From a virus: DNA of 41,577 nucleotides. Location: the IMG/VR virus record IMGVR_UViG_3300045988_115369, one strand, 5' to 3'. A program made the position numbers and the translations under genes. Below are positions 1 through 32,093 of the stretch, one piece after another (position 1 is the stretch's first letter; the number at the start of each line of letters is the position of its first letter). Below the pieces are notes generated by a model. The model searched no databases. It saw only the letters and a list, made by a program, of their open reading frames with translations, and was not told the DNA's origin.

Positions 1-119
1 AGACACGGCGTGCTGCTTCTTCTGCCCGTGCCTTTGCACGTCTTTCCAGTTCCAGTTCATCTTCAAGCGTGATATTTTCATAGTCCATGATATTCGTCCT
101 TTCTCTGAAAAAAAAAAAC
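1..119. repeat. Terminal direct repeat, copy 1 (identical to 41459..41577)
   Basis: Read directly. Both copies hold the first 88 nt of the RNAP CDS (ATG complement at 86..88 and 41544..41546), its RBS and an 11-nt A run. Positions 1..88 are therefore a truncated duplicate of the RNAP 5' end. Confidence 0.9.
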
Positions 120-125
120 ACACAT

Positions 126-155
126 AAGAAAAAGAGAGAACGAAAATGTTCTCTC
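126..155 (-). terminator. Hairpin plus U-tract between phage promoter phi-1 and the RNAP start codon
   Basis: Minus strand reads GAGAGAAC-AUUUUC-GUUCUCUC followed by UUUUUCUU. An 11-nt U run lies further downstream, before the RBS (AAAGGA). Confidence 0.6.
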
Positions 156-176
156 CCTCTATATGTGCCACAATTA
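154..176 (-). promoter_or_regulatory. Phage-RNAP promoter phi-1, directly upstream of the RNAP gene
   Basis: Minus strand TAATTGTGGCACATATA|GAGGGAGAG. It has the same 17-nt length and purine-rich start region as the T7 promoter TAATACGACTCACTATA|GGGAGA. Confidence 0.8.
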
Positions 177-178
177 GC

Positions 179-742
179 TTACTTGTCTATTTTATACAAA
201 ATTCTACTGCCACATGCATAATAACATCCATCATACTTATGGATACATTCAGGAAAACTTGCGGTGTCTTCTTCAAGTAAGTACAATTCATAACCGTCCA
301 TCAGCTTATTTCCTAATTCTTCGTTGTCAATACAATCAAGGAACATAGACGGTATATTTTTGAATGCATCTTTTTCGATAAGGAAGGCTGCTAATTCTGC
401 GGGGTTTCTGATATAGGTGTAGTTCTCATTCCTTCCACGCTGTACCCATCCGATCTGCCATGTCCTTGCTAAGATAAGGGAATCAAAAATACCTGCTTCT
501 GCTACGTCATCATAAACAAATGCAGCTTCAATCTGCATTGCCGTCATATCTATAAGTTTATGCAGAAACTTGATAATCATGTCTGCTTCCCAATCATCAA
601 TAGAGATGATATAGGAAGTATCATCATCTATTCCGATACGTTCATGCGGAAGATAGACAGTCAGGTATTCCCCTCTCTTGTCCGTTCTTACCCTAGCCCC
701 ACTGAATGGGAGCGTAAAATCAAAGCTATCTGTATCTAACAT
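179..742 (-). CDS. Acidic early protein, possible anti-restriction (ArdA-like C-terminal segment)
   Basis: The ORF-track stop at 179 is used. The start is moved to the ATG at 742, which lies 9 nt after AAGGAAGG. The protein is acidic; IDNEELGNKLMDG resembles the ArdA C-terminal motif. Confidence 0.55.
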   Translation of the reverse strand: MLDTDSFDFTLPFSGARVRTDKRGEYLTVYLPHERIGIDDDTSYIISIDDWEADMIIKFLHKLIDMTAMQIEAAFVYDDVAEAGIFDSLILARTWQIGWVQRGRNENYTYIRNPAELAAFLIEKDAFKNIPSMFLDCIDNEELGNKLMDGYELYLLEEDTASFPECIHKYDGCYYACGSRILYKIDK

Positions 743-761
743 GATTATCATCCTTCCTTGT

Positions 762-1358
762 CTAAAAATCCGTTCCATCTGCTAGGAACTCATAGTTTCC
801 TTCTGCTAATTCTGTACGAATGTAGTTATCACACGTATAGTATTCATAGTCAGCTTGTGCATTTTCATAAAGTCGTTCACATTCTTCTTTTCGCCATTCT
901 TCAAGGGCATCAATGAAATAGGCGTACTTCTCATCTTCTTCCATAGGGATGCCATCAATCAGTAATTCAATGTATGTATTCCACGAACGTGGATTAGAGC
1001 TAACCCATGAATACTTCGCTACACGAACTTCCCCATACTTTCTGATTTCATCAAGTACGGATGCTTTAATGCATCCTTTTGTATCAAAGTTTTTAGCTAC
1101 GTTGATTGCCATCTGTGCCGTTTCAAATTCTCCAGTGAACCCTGCCCCTGCTTCCGCATCATACATGGAAAAAGACACACTGTCTTTATCTACATTGAAC
1201 CCGTGGTCAGAAAACATGATGTCCGTGAAATCTTCACTTGTGTACTCTTCCCAATCAAGGGAATCTACCCATGTGTATCTGTACCTTTCCATTACTTCTT
1301 CCTGTACTTTCTTTTCCAGTTCATTGAATTTGTAAACTTTCTGTACTATTTCTCTCAT
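762..1358 (-). CDS. Acidic early protein, function unknown
   Basis: 198-aa ORF with RBS AAGGAAGG upstream, in the early-gene position. Confidence 0.6.
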   Translation of the reverse strand: MREIVQKVYKFNELEKKVQEEVMERYRYTWVDSLDWEEYTSEDFTDIMFSDHGFNVDKDSVSFSMYDAEAGAGFTGEFETAQMAINVAKNFDTKGCIKASVLDEIRKYGEVRVAKYSWVSSNPRSWNTYIELLIDGIPMEEDEKYAYFIDALEEWRKEECERLYENAQADYEYYTCDNYIRTELAEGNYEFLADGTDF

Positions 1359-1389
1359 GATAATTCCTTCCTTTCAAAACTGATCCCAC

Positions 1390-1785
1390 TTACTGTGCAA
1401 TTTCCAAGAAACCAAAGTCACATTCGATGAACCCATCATCCATAAGGGCATCTGCTACCTTGTCATAGTCCAGATAATCTTCTAATTTATCAAAGCTATC
1501 CCCCCAATAGCCTTCCACCCCTAACTCTTTGATTAAGTCTTCCCAATCCATTTCTTCTCTCCACCAAATTGAATGATTTGCAAGTTTTTCCAGTACTTCT
1601 TCTAAGTCATCCTGCACGTACTTAAGATACTGTTCCACGATAATCTGTTCATATTCTTCCAAGTCATCCAGTTCATCCTGTACTTCATCCGCTTTGAGAT
1701 ACGTCCAATACTTATCATCCACCGTGATTTCTTGATGATACTTGTTGATTTTGTTAAGAATATACTTATACATAGCCATTGCCAT
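1390..1785 (-). CDS. ArdA-like acidic early protein (putative anti-restriction DNA mimic)
   Basis: Very acidic. The C-terminus LEDYLDYDKVADALMDDGFIECDFGFLEI resembles the Tn916 ArdA C-terminus (NYIDYQAYGRDL...GIFEI), compared from memory. Three ATGs sit close together at the start. Confidence 0.55.
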   Translation of the reverse strand: MAMAMYKYILNKINKYHQEITVDDKYWTYLKADEVQDELDDLEEYEQIIVEQYLKYVQDDLEEVLEKLANHSIWWREEMDWEDLIKELGVEGYWGDSFDKLEDYLDYDKVADALMDDGFIECDFGFLEIAQ

Positions 1786-1812
1786 TCCACCCTTTCTTTT
1801 TAATCCTAGCCT

Positions 1813-1881
1813 GTCTCATCAGCATGGGTAGGCTATCCCCCATGGACTAGACACATCCTCTCTTGTGTGCCTAGTTTCGAC
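1813..1881 (-). ncRNA. Type II hammerhead ribozyme, copy A
   Basis: Minus-strand RNA: GUC-GAAAC-UAGGCACAC..GUGUGUCUAG-UC^-CAUGGG(GGAUAGCCUA)CCCAUG-CUGAUGA-GAC. All core nucleotides are present. Predicted cleavage falls between 1845 and 1844. Confidence 0.85.
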
Positions 1882-1882
1882 T

Positions 1883-2230
1883 TTATGCAATGAGTTCACC
1901 TGTCGTGATATCCACCACTTGTGCATGTAGCACGTCCAGTCTGTAGTTTTTGTTGTTTGCCACCATCTTTACAAGGGAAAATGGAATAATTCCATTTGTT
2001 CTACAGTGTTCATCAATGAACCATCGAATGTGTCGCCGTGTTGTCATGCTGTATAGCCCCGTGATTTCGAGACTATCCAGTGTTCCCTTGATTACAAGGG
2101 TATTGTAAGAGTACATTTCATATTCTGTAGACACATTGTCCTTGTTTGTGTCTACCCATACCGTGTAATTTTTTGTTGTGTGCTTGCCTTTTTCGATGTT
2201 GAACCATTTAAGCATTTTCATCATCCCCAC
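1883..2230 (-). CDS. Early protein, function unknown
   Basis: 115-aa ORF. The start is GTG at 2230 or ATG at 2224. The stop lies 1 nt from the 5' edge of hammerhead A. Confidence 0.6.
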   Translation of the reverse strand: MGMMKMLKWFNIEKGKHTTKNYTVWVDTNKDNVSTEYEMYSYNTLVIKGTLDSLEITGLYSMTTRRHIRWFIDEHCRTNGIIPFSLVKMVANNKNYRLDVLHAQVVDITTGELIA

Positions 2231-2462
2231 TTTCTTCTTCCTCTTCTTCTGAAATACCTAACGTCTCAAAAATCCAGTCTGAATCGAACCACATGATATC
2301 GTTTAATTCAGTTCTTCCAATTCCATCGGGATAGAGTTCTTCAATCATGTCACAAAATTCCTCCCCTTTGCCCTCTCTTTCAATACGTTCTGCCGTATCT
2401 ACAGCCCCACTCCATGCCGTTCTTCTAATGTCATTAAAATCCATTTCATCAAATACCTTCAT
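2208..2462 (-). CDS. Small acidic early protein with a poly-Glu tail
   Basis: Start moved to the ATG at 2462 (RBS AAAGGATGG). 84 aa, ending EEEEEESGDDENA. Confidence 0.55.
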   Translation of the reverse strand: MKVFDEMDFNDIRRTAWSGAVDTAERIEREGKGEEFCDMIEELYPDGIGRTELNDIMWFDSDWIFETLGISEEEEEESGDDENA

Positions 2463-2497
2463 AATAATTCCATCCTTTCTTTTTAATCCTGTAGCCT

Positions 2498-2567
2498 GTC
2501 TCATCAGAACGTGGGCGGCTATCCCACATTGACTAGACACACCCTCTCTTGTGCGTCTAGTTTCGAC
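2498..2567 (-). ncRNA. Type II hammerhead ribozyme, copy B
   Basis: Minus-strand RNA: GUC-GAAAC-UAGACGCAC(AAGAGAGG)GUGUGUCUAG-UC^-AAUGUGGG(AUAGCCG)CCCACGUU-CUGAUGA-GAC. Predicted cleavage falls between 2531 and 2530. Confidence 0.85.
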
Positions 2568-2569
2568 TT

Positions 2570-2935
2570 TTACTTGCTTTTCTTCACAAGCACAATTTTC
2601 AATTTATATGCCGTGTCTAAATGGTTGATATGGGTAACATCATCAAAGCAATATGCAACTAAGTTCCCTGCATAGTCACAACGTACCTTGAGAGTGCGCC
2701 CTGCATAAAAGCACACATCACCTTGTGCAATATCAGGTGAATCGTAACTACTGAATTTTTCAAGAATTTTGATTTCAATGCATTCCCATTTACCGTTTTC
2801 ATAACCTTCTTGCATTGCTATGAAATTTGAAATGCTGCCTTTAATCCTGCCGATAGCAAATTCATCAAACATAATCAACCCATTGTCTTTTGTCCATGTG
2901 TTCATGCCCCATGCCGTGATTTCTTTTCTTTCCAT
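2570..2935 (-). CDS. First early protein, function unknown
   Basis: Start moved to the ATG at 2935 (RBS GAAAGGAAG). The stop lies 2 nt from the 5' edge of hammerhead B. Confidence 0.6.
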   Translation of the reverse strand: MERKEITAWGMNTWTKDNGLIMFDEFAIGRIKGSISNFIAMQEGYENGKWECIEIKILEKFSSYDSPDIAQGDVCFYAGRTLKVRCDYAGNLVAYCFDDVTHINHLDTAYKLKIVLVKKSK

Positions 2936-3436
2936 GATTTTTCTTCCTTTCTGAATGTGTTCCGTTGTTCCTACACGCTTAACAAAAAAATTTGAGACAC
3001 CATCTCTTGATGGTTGGAATACCACTGATTAGTTCAATGGTTTAGAGACTAGATACAGCATGATTTCACTACCTTTCACCTACACCGTTCCATTTCATCG
3101 TCTGCGCTTGCCCCGTCATCACAAGATACCTTGCTAGACGTTGTAAGCACACACTCTATGAGACTGTCCACTACTCAGCCCTGCCGTATATCGCAAGCTA
3201 CTTTCATGACTTCTCAGTGTGTATCTTCACTGTCATGTTGCCACCGCTTTTCCCGATGACTTTCTTTTTTTCGTATGGTGTGAATTGATACTACGCATGC
3301 AGTAAGTTCACCATTCGCATTTTTCAGCTATTCAGTTTTCAAAGAACCCGATGATGTTTTGGGGTATCCCATCGCGTCACCGTCAATTTTTCGTTCTTAG
3401 TGGTATCACTTCCTTTCGTTCGTTCACTGTGCCTAC

Positions 3437-3465
3437 ATTGTAGCACGTTGTTCCTACATTGTCAA
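3437..3465 (-). promoter_or_regulatory. Host sigma-70/SigA early promoter P1
   Basis: Minus strand TTGACA, a 17-nt spacer and TACAAT, with an extended -10 TG (TGCTACAAT). Confidence 0.85.
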
Positions 3466-3654
3466 GAAGATTTTTCCTCTAGTTCTCTCTGTCGTCTTAC
3501 CATTCCGCCGTGAATACGTTGCCGTTCGCGTTCGCAATGTGCGTTGTTCTGAGTTCTTCCACCACGCTATCCATACATGTGCTACAGATAGCATTTTCAG
3601 AATCGGGGCGGTGCGCCTTGCGGTGTTCCGTCCGTGTCATCCTTGACTGTCCAT

Positions 3655-3683
3655 ATTGTATCATGATGTTCCTACACCGTCAA
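3655..3683 (-). promoter_or_regulatory. Host sigma-70/SigA early promoter P2
   Basis: Minus strand TTGACG, a 17-nt spacer and TACAAT, with an extended -10 TG (TGATACAAT). The spacer is a paralog of the P1 spacer. Confidence 0.85.
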
Positions 3684-3825
3684 GGATAAATTTGCATTTC
3701 TTTGTGGAGAAATTTTGTTCGCATGGTATACCATACCCCCGTAGGGTATCCATGATTGTCAACCATGGCATGCTAGTAGCACGTTAGTAGTAAGAGATTA
3801 AATCTTACAAGTACATATATAGGCA

Positions 3826-3847
3826 AACAGGGCTTGCTCGCCCTGTT
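3826..3847. terminator. 8-bp GC-rich hairpin between the integrase region and the early control region
   Basis: AACAGGGC-TTGCTC-GCCCTGTT. The minus strand continues with TTTGCC. Confidence 0.4.
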
Positions 3848-3862
3848 CCATTTAAGTATAAT
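3834..3862 (+). promoter_or_regulatory. Candidate host-type promoter for the integrase
   Basis: Plus strand TTGCTC, a 17-nt spacer and TATAAT. The -10 sits inside the palindrome GTATAATA-A-TATTATAC. Confidence 0.4.
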
Positions 3863-4005
3863 AATATTATACTAATACATTCCACCCTGCCCCAGCGATA
3901 ACGGCGAGCGCGTGGAGGGTACGGGGGAAAACAGCCGGGGCAATTTTAATGAATACCCTTTCACAATTTTTATAATTTTTTGTTTTAAGAAGGAGGAACA
4001 TCATC

Positions 4006-5160
4006 ATGAAAAGACAAAGGGCACCACGAGGGCAAGGAAGTATCACACCATACGGAGATGGAAAATTCAAAGGCATCATCACCATTGGATACAAACTAGA
4101 TCCAGTGACGAAGAAGAATAAACGTCTCACAAAAACCTTTACAGGAAAGACAAGGAAAGAAGTTCAAGCAAAGATCACTGAGTATCAGTACAAAGTAAAT
4201 GCAGGGAAGATCAATCCATTGGCAGCTCCCCTTACATTCAAACAGTACAGTGAACGATGGTTAATGATGAAAAAGACAACACTGAAACCACAGACATACA
4301 GAAACTATGAGAGTAATATGCAGTGTCTTGATTTTGGCAACAAAGTGATGAAAGACATAACAGTTTCAGACGTCAACACGCTGCTCCTAACATTGCTACA
4401 GACACTCTCCCCTGCCACTGTACGAGGAAGGCACACCCTATTGAAAAGTGTCTTTGAAGGAGCAAGAAAGGAAAAACTCATTATAGAGAATCCTGTAGAA
4501 GACAGCATGCGTATCAAGGCACAGGTAGATCACACTGTGACAGAAATGCATGTCTTAACGAAAGAAGAGAGTACGAATGTTCTATTAAAAGCTAAGGAGA
4601 TGAAAGCTCCCATATGGTTCTACCCTCTGATACGTACTGCCTTAGAGACAGGGATGAGAAAAGGAGAGCTGCGTGCCTTACAGTACAAAGCACTGGGTAA
4701 AGACACCATCTATATAAAAGCAAGTGTAGAAGACAGTGCAGGGAAAGGGGCAACTCTCACAACGCCTAAGACACGTGCCTCTGTAAGGAGAATACATGTG
4801 TCTACATCACTCATTGAGATACTACAGGCTCTTCCCCATAAAGATGAAAACAGTTTTGTCTTTCACACTAAGAATGAGACTTTAATTGCTAATAGTGATA
4901 TACAGTACTACTTTAATACGCTAAAGAAAGTAAGTAACATAGACAAACCACTTCACTTCCACGATCTAAGACACACCCATGCCACCCTTCTTATCATGGC
5001 AGGTGTGAACATCAAGACCGTCTCTACTCGCCTAGGTCACGCATCTGTATCCATCACGTTAAACAGGTACACACACGCCCTTCCGCAGCAAGATAAAGAA
5101 GCTAGTGAAATGATTTGTAGTATGCTACTATCGGATACTACGATGAAAGACAATCAGTAA
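4006..5160 (+). CDS. int: Tyrosine recombinase / phage integrase
   Basis: RBS AGGAGG lies 8 nt upstream. The N-terminal Arm-type DNA-binding segment is GSITPYGDGKFKG...GKTRKEVQAKI. Catalytic motifs are HDLRHTHAT and LGHASVSITLNRYTH. It is the only plus-strand gene. Confidence 0.95.
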   Translation: MKRQRAPRGQGSITPYGDGKFKGIITIGYKLDPVTKKNKRLTKTFTGKTRKEVQAKITEYQYKVNAGKINPLAAPLTFKQYSERWLMMKKTTLKPQTYRNYESNMQCLDFGNKVMKDITVSDVNTLLLTLLQTLSPATVRGRHTLLKSVFEGARKEKLIIENPVEDSMRIKAQVDHTVTEMHVLTKEESTNVLLKAKEMKAPIWFYPLIRTALETGMRKGELRALQYKALGKDTIYIKASVEDSAGKGATLTTPKTRASVRRIHVSTSLIEILQALPHKDENSFVFHTKNETLIANSDIQYYFNTLKKVSNIDKPLHFHDLRHTHATLLIMAGVNIKTVSTRLGHASVSITLNRYTHALPQQDKEASEMICSMLLSDTTMKDNQ

Positions 5161-5212
5161 TAAATACCCTAGATACCCCTATAGAATGTAATTGGGGTAC
5201 GTATATACATCT

Positions 5213-5261
5213 AAATACCGTATGACATAATATCGTCCTTATTAACAGACATACGGTATTT
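5213..5261. terminator. 12-bp inverted repeat between the convergent int and membrane-protein genes
   Basis: AAATACCGTATG, 25 nt, CATACGGTATTT, then TTCTG. The loop is large for a classical terminator. Confidence 0.4.
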
Positions 5262-5310
5262 TCTGTATCTTTTAGGGATAATACTACTATCTGGCTACTA
5301 CCTCTTCTAA

Positions 5311-5910
5311 TTAAAATCTAATCTTATAACTTGCTTGAAATCCATCAACTTTGTTGTCTTTGACATTCAGTTGGAAAGACACCCCTTTATTGTACCCAAA
5401 ATTCCTTTGTACTTCAATGGGAACGTACCATTCATTAGACACCCTTCCTATCCCAGCACCCACTTCCCACTTGTGCTTCTTTTCGTAGTCTTTGAAGATT
5501 GGTGTGAGGTCTAGCGTTTGATCGACACGTGCAGTGGTGGGAGTGGAAGTAGTAGAGGATGAAGGAGAAAGAGGTGTGTCTTTTAATGTTTTTTTAATGT
5601 ACTTATCTTTAACTGGTATCTGAATGTCATTACCATTGATGACTGCATGATAGTGGTTATTCAGAATCAAATCTGGATCAGACGTATTGGTTTTACTTGC
5701 TGCTGTTATTTCAGTAGTCAAAGAGGGTGAAGTATAAGAATCTGTAGTTGTAGTTGTTTTTGTTGTTCCTTCTTTATACCCTTTATCATACCCATAATGA
5801 TAAATCATTGTTGTTGTTCCAATAAAGAAAATCATCAGAATAATAACAATAAGGATATTTCTTTTATTTATATCATTAAAATCAATCACTTTAGAATCAC
5901 CTATTTTCAT
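5311..5910 (-). CDS. Membrane-anchored Thr/Ser-rich protein with an OMP-like C-terminus
   Basis: Start at ATG 5910 (the ORF track uses GTG at 5952). It has an N-terminal TM helix (ILIVIILMIFFIGTTTMI), a T/S-rich linker, and ends with the alternating pattern GFQASYKIRF and a terminal Phe. Confidence 0.6.
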   Translation of the reverse strand: MKIGDSKVIDFNDINKRNILIVIILMIFFIGTTTMIYHYGYDKGYKEGTTKTTTTTDSYTSPSLTTEITAASKTNTSDPDLILNNHYHAVINGNDIQIPVKDKYIKKTLKDTPLSPSSSTTSTPTTARVDQTLDLTPIFKDYEKKHKWEVGAGIGRVSNEWYVPIEVQRNFGYNKGVSFQLNVKDNKVDGFQASYKIRF

Positions 5911-6088
5911 TCTCAATACTGTAATAAAGGATGTAGACCTTCGGTGTGTCACATTGAAAGTTCTAATAGTTTACACACATAGTGATTCACATGCTATACC
6001 TAGTGCAGGAAACATATATCTCTTATTTCATAGAGTTCCAAGTTACAGAAACAAGAGATACATGTATATAATATAGATTCCCTCAGTC

Positions 6089-6111
6089 TCCCTTTCTACG
6101 TGCCACAATTA
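6089..6111 (-). promoter_or_regulatory. Phage-RNAP promoter phi-2
   Basis: Minus strand TAATTGTGGCACGTAGA|AAGGGAGAC. Confidence 0.8.
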
Positions 6112-6115
6112 GAAC

Positions 6116-6138
6116 TTTGTATATATGTGCCACAATTA
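6116..6138 (-). promoter_or_regulatory. Phage-RNAP promoter phi-3 (tandem with phi-2)
   Basis: Minus strand TAATTGTGGCACATATA|TACAAAG, 27 nt upstream of phi-2. Confidence 0.75.
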
Positions 6139-6162
6139 GGCTTTCTTTAGGTCTTTCCTAAA

Positions 6163-23755: not shown

Positions 23756-23831
23756 TGGTGTCTCTTTAAGGACTTGAACCTTAAACCTTCTGGGCATGAA
23801 CCAGATGCTCTAACCATTGAGCTAAAGAGAC
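23756..23831 (-). tRNA. tRNA with anticodon CAU (elongator Met or Ile2 type), CCA encoded
   Basis: The 76-nt sequence folds by hand as a cloverleaf: acceptor GTCTCTT/AAGAGAC, D arm GCTC/GAGC, anticodon arm TCTGG-TTCATGC-CCAGA, T arm TAAGG-TTCAAGT-CCTTA, discriminator A, then CCA. It is not initiator-like: the 1:72 pair is G:C and there is no triple G:C in the anticodon stem. Confidence 0.93.
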
Positions 23832-30149: not shown

Positions 30150-30197
30150 AATTTGTACTTCCTTTCTTATAAACAAAGAGAAATAAAAGTGTTCTCT

Positions 30198-30220
30198 TCC
30201 CCTTCTACGTGCCACAATTA
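30198..30220 (-). promoter_or_regulatory. Phage-RNAP promoter phi-4
   Basis: Minus strand TAATTGTGGCACGTAGA|AGGGGAAGAG. Confidence 0.8.
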
Positions 30221-30224
30221 GAAA

Positions 30225-32093
30225 TCAGTGACAATCGTACCAATTTTTGCCAATAATACCTTCTGTATCTAACTGCACTCTAAAGTTGTAATGTGCCTGT
30301 GTGTCTCGCATTGCAGCCTGTGCTTCTTCAACAACAATCTTTGCAACATCAAGATCTCTGCATGCTATCTGCTGTTCATCGTGAACCCATGCCATCAATG
30401 CAAAATCTCCATCCCACCCATGCTTTAATCCTCTGGCAAGCAGTCGCTCTTCTGTTCGTACAATCCAGTACTTACAGACAAGTGCACCTGCACTCTGCAA
30501 CAAAAGATTCAAAGCAGAATGAATAGATCTTACATGTAGCTTTCTTCCATCCAAGCCTTTGAGCCAGTGTCTTTTCCACTTCAAAATGCCCCCGCGGAAA
30601 TCTGTTTCCACAAGAGCATCTTTTACAGCCTTACGTAAAGAACGAATAGCAGGGACTTTCTTCAAGAATCTAGCCTTAACTGCTCTCCCTGCTTTTTCAT
30701 CTCCACCAATAAGACCACCCATCTTTTTATCCCCTGCACCATAGAGAAAGGCATAGATAAATCGCTTCGCTTCATCACGAGTAGCAAGACCTGCTGCTTT
30801 CTGGTTCAGTGTATGGATATCACCATTTACAACAACATCTGCGTATTCTCCCCCATCATAAGGTGCAAGAAAATGTGCAAGACAACGAAGTTCAAGACCA
30901 CATGCATCTATCCCTGCCTGATACCATCCTTCTGGAACGCCAAACAAACTTCTACATTCTTTCCCATAAGGACTAGCATTGTGAGGAACTTGTGTGACAT
31001 TAGGATTTGCGTGTGTCGCTCTCCCACTAACTGCTCCACAAGGATTCACTCTTCCATGCATACAGCCATCATTCTTCACTAGTTTAAGCCATGCCTGTGC
31101 CCCATCTGAAAGCTGTCCAAGTCTCTTCACAATCATCAAGTATTCCTCAATGATAGGAGACAAGGTTCTTACTTCCTCTGGGGCATCTGGATCCGTAGAC
31201 ATGAAATGGAATGTGTCTTCATCCACCTTCAATCTATCTTCCTCATACAGGTCTGGATTGTCGGGCGAATACTGATAATATTCAGTCACCAACCATTCAA
31301 TCTGCTGTCTGCTCTTAGGATTAAAATCTTTATAGCGTTGTATTGGAACGCCAGCCTTATATCCTAATCTTTTGTTGTCCCTCTTAGGAATGAAAACTTT
31401 GTCTGGAATACGAGGTGCCAGTTTCATCAACTCTGTTGCTAAGACACATTGCCTTTTCCGTAATACCTTTTCTAGCTCTTCTGCTGCTTCGGTATTAAAC
31501 GGAAAACCATTCTGTTCCTGCTTAAACATTAGCCATTGTGCTGCATGTTCAAGCTGAATAGCCTTTTCAGAATAGGGATGTCTTGTCAAGAAATCATAGA
31601 GCTTCTGGGTTACAACTACGTCCTGTCTGTTATACATCAGCATGTCTTCGCTGTAAGTAGCCCATGCATCCTCTGTCTCTTCCGCATACGTTCCTTTCAA
31701 CTCTCCCAGACGATACCCCCATGCTTTCAGAGACTGTGAGCCAATAAGTTTACCAGCCAATCTCCCCTTTTTGAACAAATCATAATCATAGTCTTTGATG
31801 TTACCATAGATCAGACGTGTCAAAACTAGGGTGTCTCGCACATACTTTCTTTGTTCCCTAGACACGTGGAAGATCTCTGGATAGAGTTTTTCAAGGCAAG
31901 GAATATCAAAATCAATGATGTTATGTCCGCAGATTGTCTCACCCTTATCAAGAGCATCCTGCAACATACGAACACCTACTTCAATGTTAGAAGGAGAGAA
32001 GCTATGCATTGTTTCTCCATCAAAGATCGCTATGCAGTGAACCTTTGTAGATTCTTCTAGCAAGCCGTTACTTTCAATATCAAAAGTCAACAT
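30225..32093 (-). CDS. DNA polymerase, family A (T7 gp5-like)
   Basis: Exo I is FDIESNGL. Motif A is DACGLELR, motif B is KRFIYAFLYGAG, motif C is VHDE. The start is the ATG at 32093, after GAAGGAGAAG. Confidence 0.95.
   Translation of the reverse strand: MLTFDIESNGLLEESTKVHCIAIFDGETMHSFSPSNIEVGVRMLQDALDKGETICGHNIIDFDIPCLEKLYPEIFHVSREQRKYVRDTLVLTRLIYGNIKDYDYDLFKKGRLAGKLIGSQSLKAWGYRLGELKGTYAEETEDAWATYSEDMLMYNRQDVVVTQKLYDFLTRHPYSEKAIQLEHAAQWLMFKQEQNGFPFNTEAAEELEKVLRKRQCVLATELMKLAPRIPDKVFIPKRDNKRLGYKAGVPIQRYKDFNPKSRQQIEWLVTEYYQYSPDNPDLYEEDRLKVDEDTFHFMSTDPDAPEEVRTLSPIIEEYLMIVKRLGQLSDGAQAWLKLVKNDGCMHGRVNPCGAVSGRATHANPNVTQVPHNASPYGKECRSLFGVPEGWYQAGIDACGLELRCLAHFLAPYDGGEYADVVVNGDIHTLNQKAAGLATRDEAKRFIYAFLYGAGDKKMGGLIGGDEKAGRAVKARFLKKVPAIRSLRKAVKDALVETDFRGGILKWKRHWLKGLDGRKLHVRSIHSALNLLLQSAGALVCKYWIVRTEERLLARGLKHGWDGDFALMAWVHDEQQIACRDLDVAKIVVEEAQAAMRDTQAHYNFRVQLDTEGIIGKNWYDCH

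What the first reader, a model, noticed from the sequence alone, without database searches (positions are those of the whole stretch)
1813..1881. Second type II hammerhead copy with compensatory stem changes
This copy has the same core, the same GUC cleavage triplet and the same loop-I/3'-flank complementarity (UAGCC with GGCUA) as copy B. Compared with copy B, stem I shows two fully compensatory pair changes (A:U to C:G at 1.1/2.1, and U:A to G:C at the fifth pair). Stem III shows A-U to G-U type changes. Core nucleotides and the pseudoknot partners are unchanged. This within-genome covariation argues for selection on RNA structure rather than on sequence.
Basis: seen in the sequence. Interest (0 to 1): 0.75.

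Follow-up and report, generated by a model that had tools for sequence, protein, structure and literature searches.

The report
Self-cutting hammerhead RNA between phage genes
This is a genuine second copy of a well-known self-cutting RNA (a type II hammerhead ribozyme) that sits between two early genes of a T7-like gut phage, most likely chopping one long message into separate pieces; it is a clear example of something first described in 2011, not a new kind of element.

Summary
On the minus strand, window 1881-1813 reads 5'-GUC-GAAA-[stem III]-GUC|[stem I]-CUGAUGA-GAC-3'. Every hammerhead core nucleotide is canonical. Loop I UAGCC (1835-1831) can pair with the tail GGCUA (1811-1807). Compared with copy B (2567-2498), stem I pairs 1 and 5 change on both sides (A-U to C-G, U-A to G-C).

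Rfam Hammerhead_II matches full-length at 30.9 bits, below the gathering score of 37. Covariation in 23 close relatives and 145 broader phage hammerheads supports all the helices and the pseudoknot.

Two qualifications apply. The B/C differences are two circulating stem-I alleles that occur at either site in related phages, so they are not independent in-place compensations. The class, its pseudoknot and its clustering between prophage genes near integrases were all published in 2011 (Perreault et al.).

New context from this work:
- The window is a complete temperate T7-like phage, probably of Dialister.
- Both ribozymes lie in its host-transcribed early operon.
- Each sits in a roughly 100-nt stop-codon | ribozyme | SD-start module.
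- The finding's copy is present in 13 of 13 genomes that have the downstream gene orfD and in 0 of 5 that lack it.

Best explanation: self-catalysed intercistronic mRNA processing, analogous to the RNase III sites of T7 early RNA. Verdict: new member of a known kind.

The parts
1813..1881 (-). Type II hammerhead ribozyme, copy C (the finding): stem II 5' strand through stem II 3' strand
   Evidence: Sequence; Rfam RF02276 full-length alignment at 30.9 bits; own model R1 at 93.9 bits
1879..1881 (-). Stem II 5' strand GUC, pairing with GAC at 1813-1815; begins 1 nt after the orfC stop codon TAA (1883-1885)
   Evidence: Sequence; pairs invariant in the subfamily and covarying in the broad set
1876..1878 (-). 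Core G12 A13 A14
   Evidence: Sequence; invariant
1846..1875 (-). Stem III hairpin: 10 bp (1875-1866 with 1855-1846, starting at A15.1-U16.1) and a 10-nt loop. Predicted 3'-terminal hairpin of the upstream cleavage product
   Evidence: MFE folds; pair counts
1844..1845 (-). Predicted cleavage site: between C17 (1845) and C1.1 (1844), after the GUC triplet
   Evidence: Position follows from the hammerhead consensus (Perreault 2011, PMC3088659); not assayed
1823..1844 (-). Stem I hairpin: 6 bp (1844-1839 with 1828-1823) and the loop GGAUAGCCUA. Would be the 5' end of the downstream product
   Evidence: pairs 1-6 are paired in 137 of 138 cells across 23 distinct relatives
1831..1835 (-). Loop I pseudoknot strand UAGCC
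   Evidence: 5 pairs; the terminal pair is C-G 9 / U-A 9 / U.G 3 across relatives
1816..1822 (-). Core C3-A9 (CUGAUGA)
   Evidence: Sequence; invariant in 25 of 26 subfamily copies
1807..1811 (-).
   Evidence: in the broad set, 120 of 219 hammerheads have a loop I/tail pseudoknot of at least 4 bp, against 27 expected when the tails are permuted
1779..1806 (-). Conserved leader GGAUUAAAAAGAAAGGGUGGAAUGGCA with the SD (1787-1795) and the orfD start (ATG 1785, or more likely 1779). It belongs to the same repeated module as the ribozyme
   Evidence: (D13), 61: the 24-nt block occurs only at these two sites
2498..2567 (-). Hammerhead copy B (cleavage between 2531 and 2530). Tail GGCUA at 2492-2496, leader/SD at 2467-2490, orfB ATG at 2462
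   Evidence: Rfam 35.2 bits; R1 108 bits
1390..1785 (-). orfD: lineage-restricted ORFan whose presence or absence tracks this ribozyme copy
1883..2462 (-). orfB (2208-2462) and orfC (1883-2224): the two-gene block bounded by the two ribozymes. The inter-cleavage RNA is 2530 to 1845, 686 nt
   Evidence: the block is absent in L148, where a single hammerhead remains
3437..3683 (-). Two near-duplicate sigma-70-like promoters (3683-3655 and 3465-3437) that would drive the early operon
   Evidence: 10/12 and 11/12 matches, both with an extended -10 TG; consensus match only

Best explanation
Window 1881-1813 (-), together with its tail to 1807, is an active-type, cis-acting type II hammerhead ribozyme. 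It is one of two in the host-RNAP-transcribed early operon of a temperate T7-like phage.

Gene order on the minus strand: twin promoters, orfA, HH-B, orfB, orfC, HH-C, orfD, orfE, orfF, RNAP gene.

Folding: once RNA polymerase has made the 3' half, three things form around the canonical core. They are stems I and III, the 3-bp stem II (GUC/GAC), and the 5-bp pseudoknot between loop I and the 3' tail.

Cleavage: the RNA cuts itself after C17 (between 1845 and 1844).
- The upstream RNA (orfB-orfC) then ends about 40 nt past its intact stop codon. Its 3' end is the 10-bp stem III hairpin plus GUC with a 2',3'-cyclic phosphate.
- The downstream RNA (orfD-orfE-orfF) begins with a 5'-OH directly on the stem I hairpin/pseudoknot, followed by a fixed leader, SD and start codon.
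- After the cut only the 3-bp stem II holds the products together, so cleavage is effectively irreversible.

Inferred purpose: host-independent cutting of the polycistronic early RNA into defined segments. Each segment has structured, nuclease-resistant ends and a standard 5' UTR that does not depend on upstream context. This is the same logic as the RNase III sites in the T7 early transcript. The roughly 100-nt stop | ribozyme | SD module also behaves as a portable unit that moves with gene cassettes.

Shown: the sequence and structure, the covariation, the gene-boundary placement, and the co-occurrence with orfD. Inferred: cleavage in vivo, end protection and expression insulation.
For: Identity:
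- Canonical core and topology.
- Full-length Rfam Hammerhead_II alignment.
- Two matches against 0.00 expected by chance.
- MFE folding reproduces stems I and III.

Selection on structure:
- Subfamily: 96% of cells paired, five pairs changed on both sides, including the pseudoknot.
- Broad set: 96.9% paired, 21 of 22 pairs covary.
- Pseudoknot of at least 4 bp in 120 of 219 hammerheads, against 27 when the tails are permuted.

Intercistronic design, across 219 distinct phage type II hammerheads:
- The upstream ORF's stop codon ends within -1 to +5 nt of the ribozyme's 5' end in 148 of 219. At random positions, 3% fall within 0 to +5 nt.
- An SD plus start codon follows within 80 nt (median 26) in 194 of 219. 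The random-position control is 26%.

Operon and phage type:
- Promoters and a terminator-like hairpin.
- T7-type RNAP, primase-helicase, PolA, portal, capsid, nozzle, tail fibre, terminase and an integrase.
- No phage-promoter repeat inside the operon.
- Hammerheads upstream of the RNAP gene, on the same strand, in three other T7-like lineages.

Module behaviour:
- A hammerhead is present in 13 of 13 genomes with orfD and in 0 of 5 without it.
- In L148, one hammerhead joins the site-1 5' flank to the site-2 3' flank.

Literature:
- Tandem prophage hammerheads cleave during in vitro transcription and flank genes near integrases; a short stem II plus a pseudoknot is sufficient for fast cleavage (PMC3088659).
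- Type II hammerheads near phage-like genes cleave in vivo in D. vulgaris (PMC8782182).
- T7 early RNA has five RNase III processing signals (PMC3867540).
Against: - No cleavage assay or transcript-end data exist for this locus.
- Both copies score below the Rfam gathering threshold (30.9 and 35.2 against 37).
- Stabilisation and insulation are inferred, not shown. A 5'-OH can target RNAs to RNase J1 in some Firmicutes (the glmS precedent, from my own knowledge).
- The nested MFE of copy C's 3' product pairs the stem I 3' strand with the SD. It is not significant (z about 0) and is not conserved.
- One relative (L128) carries G5A in the core at this same site, and five relatives do without a ribozyme there. 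The ribozyme is therefore dispensable for the phage.
- The promoters and the terminator are consensus matches only.
Confidence: 0.8

Rival explanations
1. The repeated ribozyme-plus-SD block matters mainly at the DNA level. It would be a roughly 100-bp homology 'linker' that lets phages swap, insert or delete early-gene cassettes by recombination. RNA self-cleavage would be secondary or dispensable.
For: - L148 has exactly one hammerhead joining the site-1 upstream flank to the site-2 downstream flank, with orfB-orfC missing.
- The two stem-I alleles occur in all four site combinations among relatives.
- L128 has a chimeric third allele plus G5A.
- The copy is present or absent together with orfD.
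- The early genes are mosaic (33-98% identity) while the integrase is 97-99% identical.
Against: - A pure DNA linker would not need an intact catalytic core in 25 of 26 copies.
- It would not need compensatory changes in stems I and III and in the pseudoknot.
- Hammerheads in unrelated phages share only the structure and core, not the sequence, yet sit at the same stop | SD boundaries.
- Recombination at repeats is an expected side-effect of having any repeated element.
Confidence: 0.1
2. Cleavage is conditional, not constitutive. Because the orfC stop codon abuts stem II (1 nt away), a terminating ribosome would cover the GUC-GAAA stretch and the base of stem III. Ribozyme folding, and so cleavage, would then be coupled to translation of the upstream gene or to Mg2+ or other signals, acting as a regulatory switch.
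For: - The stop codon lies within -1 to +5 nt of the ribozyme in 148 of 219 cases.
- Perreault et al. raise regulated cleavage as a possibility for phage hammerheads.
- Copy C has a weaker stem I and stem III than copy B: MFE -20.9 against -26.6 kcal/mol.
Against: - Tight spacing is equally explained by genome economy.
- There is no conserved alternative structure: the folds with flanks have z-scores of -0.7 to 0.1.
- There is no ligand-binding domain or extra conserved element.
- Tandem prophage hammerheads cleave efficiently in plain in vitro transcription (PMC3088659).
Confidence: 0.07
3. The two ribozymes excise the 686-nt orfB-orfC RNA (2530 to 1845). That RNA is then circularised or spliced: the 5' half of copy C and the 3' half of copy B rebuild a complete hammerhead through their identical stem II. 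Ligation would occur by reversal of cleavage or by an RtcB-type ligase.
For: - The two copies are in the same orientation and have identical stem II and core.
- The products carry 5'-OH and 2',3'-cP ends, which are substrates for RtcB (established knowledge).
- Perreault et al. name this possibility.
Against: - Perreault et al. looked for circular or spliced products from tandem prophage hammerheads and found none.
- Many relatives have only one hammerhead.
- A 3-bp stem II gives little affinity for re-association.
- Arrays of about 10 hammerheads between successive genes fit processing better than circle formation.
Confidence: 0.03
4. The motif is a chance or decayed look-alike with no RNA function.
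For: Both copies fall below the Rfam gathering score. L128 carries a core mutation.
Against: - Zero matches are expected by chance.
- The core is fully canonical.
- Covariation is seen at two phylogenetic depths.
- The copy is conserved at 63-98% orfD divergence.
Confidence: 0.01

Closest known systems
Type II hammerhead ribozymes with a loop I / 3'-tail pseudoknot (Perreault et al. 2011, PMC3088659; Rfam RF02276 Hammerhead_II)
   Same: [quoted passage not shown] Same canonical core, GUC triplet, very short stem II and 5-bp pseudoknot immediately 3' of stem II. Full-length alignment to the Rfam model.
   Different: The score is below the Rfam gathering cut-off (30.9 and 35.2 against 37). The causes are mainly a long stem III (10-11 bp with an 8-10-nt loop scored as an insertion) and the register of stem II. 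There is no biochemical difference that I can see.
Clustered hammerheads flanking genes in prophages near integrase genes (Clostridium scindens, Agrobacterium tumefaciens, Azorhizobium caulinodans; Perreault et al. 2011, Fig. 3)
   Same: Several same-strand hammerheads bracket single genes or short gene blocks of variable, mostly unknown function. An integrase lies about 2 kb away. The proposed role is to cut long phage transcripts into gene-length mRNAs.
   Different: Here the phage is a T7-like podophage, and the ribozymes are confined to the pre-RNAP early operon. Natural presence/absence and recombinant variants of the same junction are available. I did not find these points in the papers I read.
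RNase III processing sites of the bacteriophage T7 early polycistronic RNA (five signals in the ~7000-nt precursor; PMC3867540)
   Same: Works alike: intercistronic cuts in the host-transcribed early RNA of a T7-type phage, upstream of and around the RNAP gene, that leave hairpins at the ends of the products.
   Different: Not a member. The T7 sites are about 20-bp irregular dsRNA hairpins cut by a host protein, giving 5'-phosphate and 3'-OH ends. Here the RNA cuts itself and gives 5'-OH and 2',3'-cyclic phosphate ends, and the helices are only 6-11 bp.
Type II hammerheads of Desulfovibrio vulgaris, shown active in vivo by cyPhyRNA-seq (PMC8782182)
   Same: Type II hammerheads next to hypothetical and phage-like genes, two of them about 300 nt apart. 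Both cleavage fragments were detected in cells.
   Different: Different host phylum and sequence. Activity at the present locus is untested.
Synthetic ribozyme insulators such as RiboJ (recalled from my own knowledge; not looked up here)
   Same: A self-cleaving hammerhead is placed just upstream of an RBS so that the mRNA gets a defined 5' end, with a hairpin, that does not depend on upstream sequence.
   Different: The engineered part derives from a satellite-RNA hammerhead of a different topology. The resemblance is functional only and is a lead, not a test.

Membership tests
Hammerhead ribozyme, type II (Rfam RF02276; Perreault 2011) | Conserved core: C3 U4 G5 A6 N7 G8 A9, G12 A13 A14, A15.1-U16.1, H17 | tested here: met
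   CUGAUGA at 1822-1816, GAA at 1878-1876, A15.1 at 1875 pairing with U16.1 at 1846, C17 at 1845
Hammerhead ribozyme, type II (Rfam RF02276; Perreault 2011) | Three helices around the core, with no mispair adjacent to the core (1.1-2.1, 10.1-11.1, 15.1-16.1) | tested here: met
   C1844-G1823, G1815-C1879 and A1875-U1846. Stem I is 6 bp, stem II 3 bp and stem III 10 bp
Hammerhead ribozyme, type II (Rfam RF02276; Perreault 2011) | Type II permutation: stems I and III closed by loops, stem II open to the 5' and 3' ends | tested here: met
   The order is GUC-GAAA-stem III hairpin-C17-stem I hairpin-CUGAUGA-GAC
Hammerhead ribozyme, type II (Rfam RF02276; Perreault 2011) | Pseudoknot of at least 4 bp between loop I and the nucleotides just 3' of stem II | tested here: met
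   UAGCC (1835-1831) with GGCUA (1811-1807). The terminal pair is C-G 9 / U-A 9 / U.G 3 in relatives
Hammerhead ribozyme, type II (Rfam RF02276; Perreault 2011) | Helices supported by covariation in homologs | tested here: met
   Caveat: the broad alignment A3 was fitted to the model
Hammerhead ribozyme, type II (Rfam RF02276; Perreault 2011) | Score at or above the Rfam curated gathering threshold (37 bits) | tested here: not met
   30.9 bits for this copy and 35.2 for copy B. The alignment is full-length with E = 4e-5 in the 95-nt stretch. This is an annotation cut-off, not a biochemical criterion
Hammerhead ribozyme, type II (Rfam RF02276; Perreault 2011) | Site-specific self-cleavage giving 2',3'-cyclic phosphate and 5'-OH ends | not testable with these tools
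   Needs in vitro transcription or end-specific RNA-seq
Prophage/phage intercistronic hammerhead clusters (Perreault 2011, Fig. 3) | Two or more same-strand hammerheads bracketing genes, in a phage or prophage, near an integrase | tested here: met
   Two copies 686 nt apart bracket orfB-orfC; integrase at 4006-5160; T7-like phage genes
RNase III processing signal of T7-type early RNA | An extended (about two helical turns) dsRNA hairpin that is a substrate of host RNase III | tested here: not met
   The helices are 6, 3 and 10 bp around a hammerhead core. The resemblance is in role and position only

The most novel reading that the evidence does not exclude
The two same-sense ribozymes release the 686-nt orfB-orfC RNA with 5'-OH and 2',3'-cyclic-phosphate ends. 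Its termini rebuild a chimeric hammerhead: the 5' half of copy C plus the 3' half of copy B, which share an identical stem II and core. The RNA is then ligated, by reversal of cleavage or by RtcB, into a circular translatable phage mRNA.

A less radical novel reading is that the stop | ribozyme | SD blocks are portable, self-trimming 5' UTRs. They would replace host RNase III sites in T7-like early operons and would double as recombination linkers for shuffling early, possibly anti-defence, gene cassettes.
Probability: 0.04. Interest if true: 0.8.

Novelty: new member of a known kind. Interest (0 to 1): 0.3.

Why it matters
The biological role of the hundreds of bacterial and phage hammerheads has stayed unclear since 2011. 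This locus does not change the picture, but it is an unusually clean test bed.
- The phage is a T7-like temperate phage whose early operon has a ribozyme at the kind of position where T7 uses RNase III.
- Natural relatives carry the same gene junction in several states: with the ribozyme, with a G5A core mutant, with a non-ribozyme hairpin module, or with the bounded cassette deleted.
- One relative is a prophage in an assembled genome named Dialister sp. i34-0019-2H8. If that strain can be grown, cleavage and its effect on mRNA fate could be measured directly.

For annotation, both copies fall under the Rfam gathering score, and gene callers extend orfD into the ribozyme. Elements like this are therefore routinely missed or mis-called as coding.

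Tried and rejected
- Whole-window Rfam scans (gathering and E<=10) and a 301-nt scan did not list this copy. A 95-nt stretch showed a 30.9-bit full-length match, so the earlier absence was a filter effect.
- MAFFT and my own covariance model both put the 1-nt stem-I gap of the C-type allele inside the helix. I therefore recounted pairs in Python from the helix ends.
- Megablast of window 1-6000 against GenBank phages found no match.
- Pfam, PHROGs and NCBIfam on orfA-orfF gave no function; the only hits were PHROG families of unknown function.
- A homolog search showed that orfD is a lineage-restricted ORFan.
- orfB and orfD are unrelated, so this is not a tandem duplication of ribozyme plus gene.
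- A weak R1 hit at 797-857 (12.5 bits, E = 0.44, inside orfE) was rejected.
- SD sequestration by the stem I 3' strand in the 3' product of copy C was rejected. It is not significant (z about 0) and is not conserved with the other allele at the same site.
- The idea that the repeated block is a phage-RNAP promoter was rejected. The promoter-like family, TAATTGTGGCAC..., is a different sequence located elsewhere.
- No other ribozyme class was found in the window.
- The metagenome-contig scan was not used, because the viral and genome collections gave enough.

Full report
OBSERVATION

The element reads on the minus strand. Window 1884-1805 (-) is AAA GUC GAAA CUAGGCACA CAAGAGAGGA UGUGUCUAGU C CAUGGG GGAUAGCCUA CCCAUG CUGAUGA GAC A GGCUA GG.
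- This is the type II hammerhead layout: stem II 5' strand, GAAA, stem III hairpin, C17, stem I hairpin, CUGAUGA, stem II 3' strand.
- Every core position is canonical, and the three pairs closing onto the core are Watson-Crick.
- Cleavage would fall between C17 (1845) and C1.1 (1844).
- Loop I UAGCC (1835-1831) is complementary to GGCUA (1811-1807).

A regex for the type II layout finds exactly two instances in 41.6 kb, this one and copy B at 2567-2498 (-). The anchored pattern occurs twice, against 0.00 expected in 100 dinucleotide shuffles.

Rfam results:
- Hammerhead_II reported copy B at 35.2 bits.
- It did not list this copy in the whole-window scan or the 301-nt scan.
- With a 95-nt stretch it aligns full-length at 30.9 bits, E = 4e-5.
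- Both copies are under the gathering score of 37, so a standard Rfam annotation misses both.

Thermodynamic folding of the isolated elements reproduces stems I and III.

COMPARISON OF THE TWO COPIES

In the correct register, going from copy B to copy C:

| Helix | Pair | Copy B | Copy C |
|---|---|---|---|
| Stem I | 1 | A-U | C-G |
| Stem I | 3 | U.G | U-A |
| Stem I | 5 | U-A | G-C |
| Stem I | 7 | G-C | G.A |
| Stem I | 8 | G-C | G.U |
| Stem III | 6 | A-U | G.U |
| Stem III | 8 | G.U | A-U |
| Stem III | 11 | C-G | lost (C.A) |

The core and both pseudoknot strands are unchanged.

HOMOLOGS AND COVARIATION

In 115 of the 150 matches, both hairpins have at least 4 consecutive pairs from the core.

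A subfamily pattern gave the following:
- About a dozen phage contigs of roughly 41 kb (87-95% nucleotide identity to the window over the fetched stretches).
- One hit in a 2.5-Mb contig of Dialister sp. i34-0019-2H8.

Counts on 20 distinct subfamily sequences (A2):
- 96% of pair cells are standard pairs, against 22-44% with the partners slid.
- Five pairs change on both sides: two in stem III, two in stem I, and the pseudoknot pair (C-G 8, U-A 8, U.G 3, other 1).

My register-correct recount on 23 distinct sequences:
- Stem I pairs 1-6 are paired in 137 of 138 cells.
- Pair 1 is A-U 16 / C-G 7. Pair 3 is U.G 5 / U-A 7 / C-G 11. Pair 5 is U-A 15 / G-C 7 / G.A 1.
- Pair 7 is mostly unpaired, so stem I is effectively 6 bp.

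A covariance model built from A2 found 185 hammerheads in the first 100 loci. On the 150 best of these (145 distinct), 96.9% of cells pair and 21 of 22 pairs change on both sides. The caveat is that this alignment was fitted to the model.

An alignment-free check on 219 distinct type II hammerheads found a Watson-Crick pseudoknot of at least 4 bp between loop I and the tail in 120. The mean was 27 when the tails were permuted among ribozymes.

A QUALIFICATION ON 'WITHIN-GENOME COVARIATION'

The B-type stem I (AAYGUG.../...CACGUU) and the C-type stem I (CAUGGG.../...CCCAUG) are two linked alleles. They occur at either genomic site in different relatives:
- B at site 1 and C at site 2: the window and L041.
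- C then B: L009 and L066.
- B then B: L090, L099 and L136.
- C then C: L134.

L128 carries a third, chimeric allele (AACGGG/CCCGUU). The two copies in the window therefore sample one allelic difference that is being shuffled by recombination. They do not represent several independent in-place compensations. The conclusion (selection on structure) stands, but mainly because of the wider alignments.

CONTEXT

All the neighbouring genes are on the minus strand. The order is:
- orfA (2570-2932; the ORF is open back to 3025).
- HH-B.
- orfB (2208-2462).
- orfC (1883-2224).
- HH-C.
- orfD (1390-1785, more likely starting at ATG 1779).
- orfE (762-1358).
- orfF (179-778).

The ribozyme starts 1 nt after the orfC stop codon and ends 27-33 nt before the orfD start. 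The two copies share not only the ribozyme but also the following leader and SD (AGGAUUAAAAAGAAAGGRUGGAAU). That block occurs only at these two places.

Upstream lie two near-duplicate strong sigma-70-like promoters (3683-3655 and 3465-3437). Downstream of orfF is a 13-bp terminator-like hairpin (160-129).

The rest of the window encodes:
- a single-subunit RNAP (38982-41546);
- T7-type primase-helicase, PolA, portal, Gp10A-like capsid, nozzle, tail fibre and terminase;
- one divergent integrase (4006-5160).

Positions 1-119 repeat 41459-41577 inside the RNAP gene, so the contig is a circular assembly of about 41,458 bp. A separate repeat family (TAATTGTGGCAC..., about 8 sites) looks like the phage-RNAP promoter. 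It is absent from 190-3437.

The two hammerheads therefore sit in the host-transcribed early operon that leads into the RNAP gene of a temperate T7-like phage. Three other T7-like lineages (RNAP 30-40% identical) also have hammerheads upstream of the RNAP gene on the same strand, ten in a row in L045.

GENERAL ARCHITECTURE

Across the 219 distinct hammerheads:
- The end of an upstream ORF's stop codon lies within -1 to +5 nt of the ribozyme's 5' end in 148. At random positions in the same loci, 3% fall within 0 to +5 nt.
- An SD plus start codon opening an ORF of at least 40 codons follows within 80 nt (median 26) in 194. The figure at random positions is 26%.

The unit is thus stop | ribozyme | SD-start.

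NATURAL VARIANTS OF THIS JUNCTION

| Architecture | Genomes |
|---|---|
| A-HH-B-C-HH-D-E-F | the window plus nine relatives (L009, L041, L066, L090, L099, L128, L134, L136, L138) |
| A-HH-B-C-[different hairpin module]-E-F, no orfD and no second hammerhead | L035, L139, L140, L145; L133 has an extra small ORF |
| A-HH-D-E-F, with one hammerhead carrying the site-1 5' flank and the site-2 3' flank | L148 |
| [hairpin module]-B-C-HH-D-E, no orfA | L147, L149 |

- A hammerhead lies upstream of orfD in 13 of 13 genomes that have orfD. In L138 an extra ORF of about 60 codons intervenes.
- A hammerhead lies at the orfC-orfE junction in 0 of 5 genomes that lack orfD.
- L128's copy at this site has CUAAUGA (G5A) and is probably inactive.
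- orfD is an ORFan limited to this lineage. orfA-orfF have no assignable function.

MECHANISM

Shown here: a canonical, structurally constrained type II hammerhead placed exactly at a cistron boundary in a polycistronic early operon.

From the literature:
- Such tandem prophage hammerheads cleave during in vitro transcription, and a short stem II plus a pseudoknot suffices for fast cleavage (PMC3088659).
- Type II hammerheads near phage-like genes cleave in vivo (PMC8782182).

Inferred:
- Cleavage after C17 leaves orfB-orfC RNA ending in the stem III hairpin with only C17 unpaired. This fold is predicted robustly.
- It leaves orfD-orfF RNA beginning with a 5'-OH on the stem I hairpin/pseudoknot, followed by a fixed leader and SD.
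- With only a 3-bp stem II linking the products, they should dissociate.
- This would give each early segment defined, structured ends and a 5' UTR that does not depend on upstream context.
- It works like the five RNase III signals in the T7 early precursor (PMC3867540) but without needing a host enzyme.
- Whether SD accessibility changes on cleavage is inconclusive.

COMPARISON WITH THE KNOWN, AND NOVELTY

Perreault et al. 2011 already reported:
- natural type II hammerheads;
- the loop I/3'-tail pseudoknot;
- proximity to integrases in prophages;
- clusters flanking genes of variable identity;
- the idea that long phage transcripts are processed into gene-length mRNAs.

They also report an unsuccessful search for circular or spliced products. 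The finding is therefore a new member of a known kind.

Points I did not find in the papers I read:
- the restriction to the pre-RNAP early operon of T7-like temperate phages;
- the quantitative stop | HH | SD rule;
- the presence/absence, G5A and recombinant variants at one junction.

These are incremental, and useful mainly as an experimental handle.

VERDICT

It is a real but ordinary example of a known ribozyme class in its known type of context. Interest 0.3.

Noticed in passing
window 1-119 and 41459-41577: A perfect 119-nt terminal repeat that lies inside the RNAP ORF (38982-41546, minus strand). The contig is therefore a circular-assembly overlap and the true genome is about 41,458 bp. 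orfF and the RNAP gene are neighbours.
   Followed up: partly
window 149-190, 6084-6152, 30193-30225, 35621-35653, 38277-38308, 38489-38554 (minus strand): A repeat family that reads TAATTGTGGCACGTAGAAGGGGAAGAGA-like on the minus strand. These are probably the phage-RNAP promoters of this T7-like phage. None lies inside the early operon (190-3437).
   Followed up: partly
window 3437-3683 (minus strand) and the 2932-3437 leader: Two near-duplicate strong sigma-70-like promoters (TTGAC-N-TGTAGGAAC...TG-TACAAT), reminiscent of the tandem early promoters of T7. They are followed by an ORF-poor leader of about 500 nt before the orfA ATG at 2932. The 3026-4005 gap next to the integrase probably also holds attP.
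   Followed up: no
L035:2655-2803, L139:3372-3520, L140:4235-4385, L145:5768-5918, L147:2200-2330: Where the hammerhead is absent, an alternative intercistronic module takes its place: ...GTGTGTCTTAAATTTTTTGGTAAG, then an 11-bp hairpin (GTGCGGATGTA...TACATCCGCAC), then AGAAAGGATGG. Its first part resembles the loop and 3' strand of hammerhead stem III, so it may be a relic. It could be a nuclease-dependent processing site.
   Followed up: partly
L148:2740-2900: A relative with int-orfA-[one hammerhead]-orfD. orfB-orfC are missing, the 5' flank is that of site 1 and the 3' flank that of site 2. This is the product expected from recombination between the two ribozyme/SD repeats.
   Followed up: yes
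L128:1787-1866; L138:10578-10656: Natural core variants. L128's copy at the orfD site has CUAAUGA (G5A, probably inactive) and a chimeric stem-I allele. L138's site-1 copy uses a GUA triplet (A17) and has a C.A mismatch at stem I pair 5.
   Followed up: partly
L045:9155-13545 (ten copies); also L092, L012, L026, L013, L095, L097: Arrays of about 6-10 type II hammerheads between successive small genes. In L045 the array lies directly upstream of a T7-type RNAP gene on the same strand. L101 and L100 also have a hammerhead upstream of an RNAP gene.
   Followed up: partly
window 1785-1830; proteins P0001 (145 aa) and P0002 (177 aa): Public gene calls for orfD homologs are extended at the N-terminus by 14-46 codons, which would run into the ribozyme. 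Spacing from the SD suggests the real start is ATG 1779, giving a 129-aa protein like P0005, P0007 and P0009.
   Followed up: no
window 23756-23831 (minus strand): A tRNA-Met (CAU) gene between the capsid and tail-tube region genes. The antisense Rfam 'Plastid-ycf2' hit at the same place is spurious.
   Followed up: no
window 179-3025 compared with 4006-5160, across relatives: The early genes are highly mosaic: orfF is 33-92% and orfA 55-99% identical among relatives, while the adjacent integrase is 97-99% identical. Several early proteins look strongly acidic by eye, as T7-type anti-restriction proteins are, but no family match was found.
   Followed up: partly
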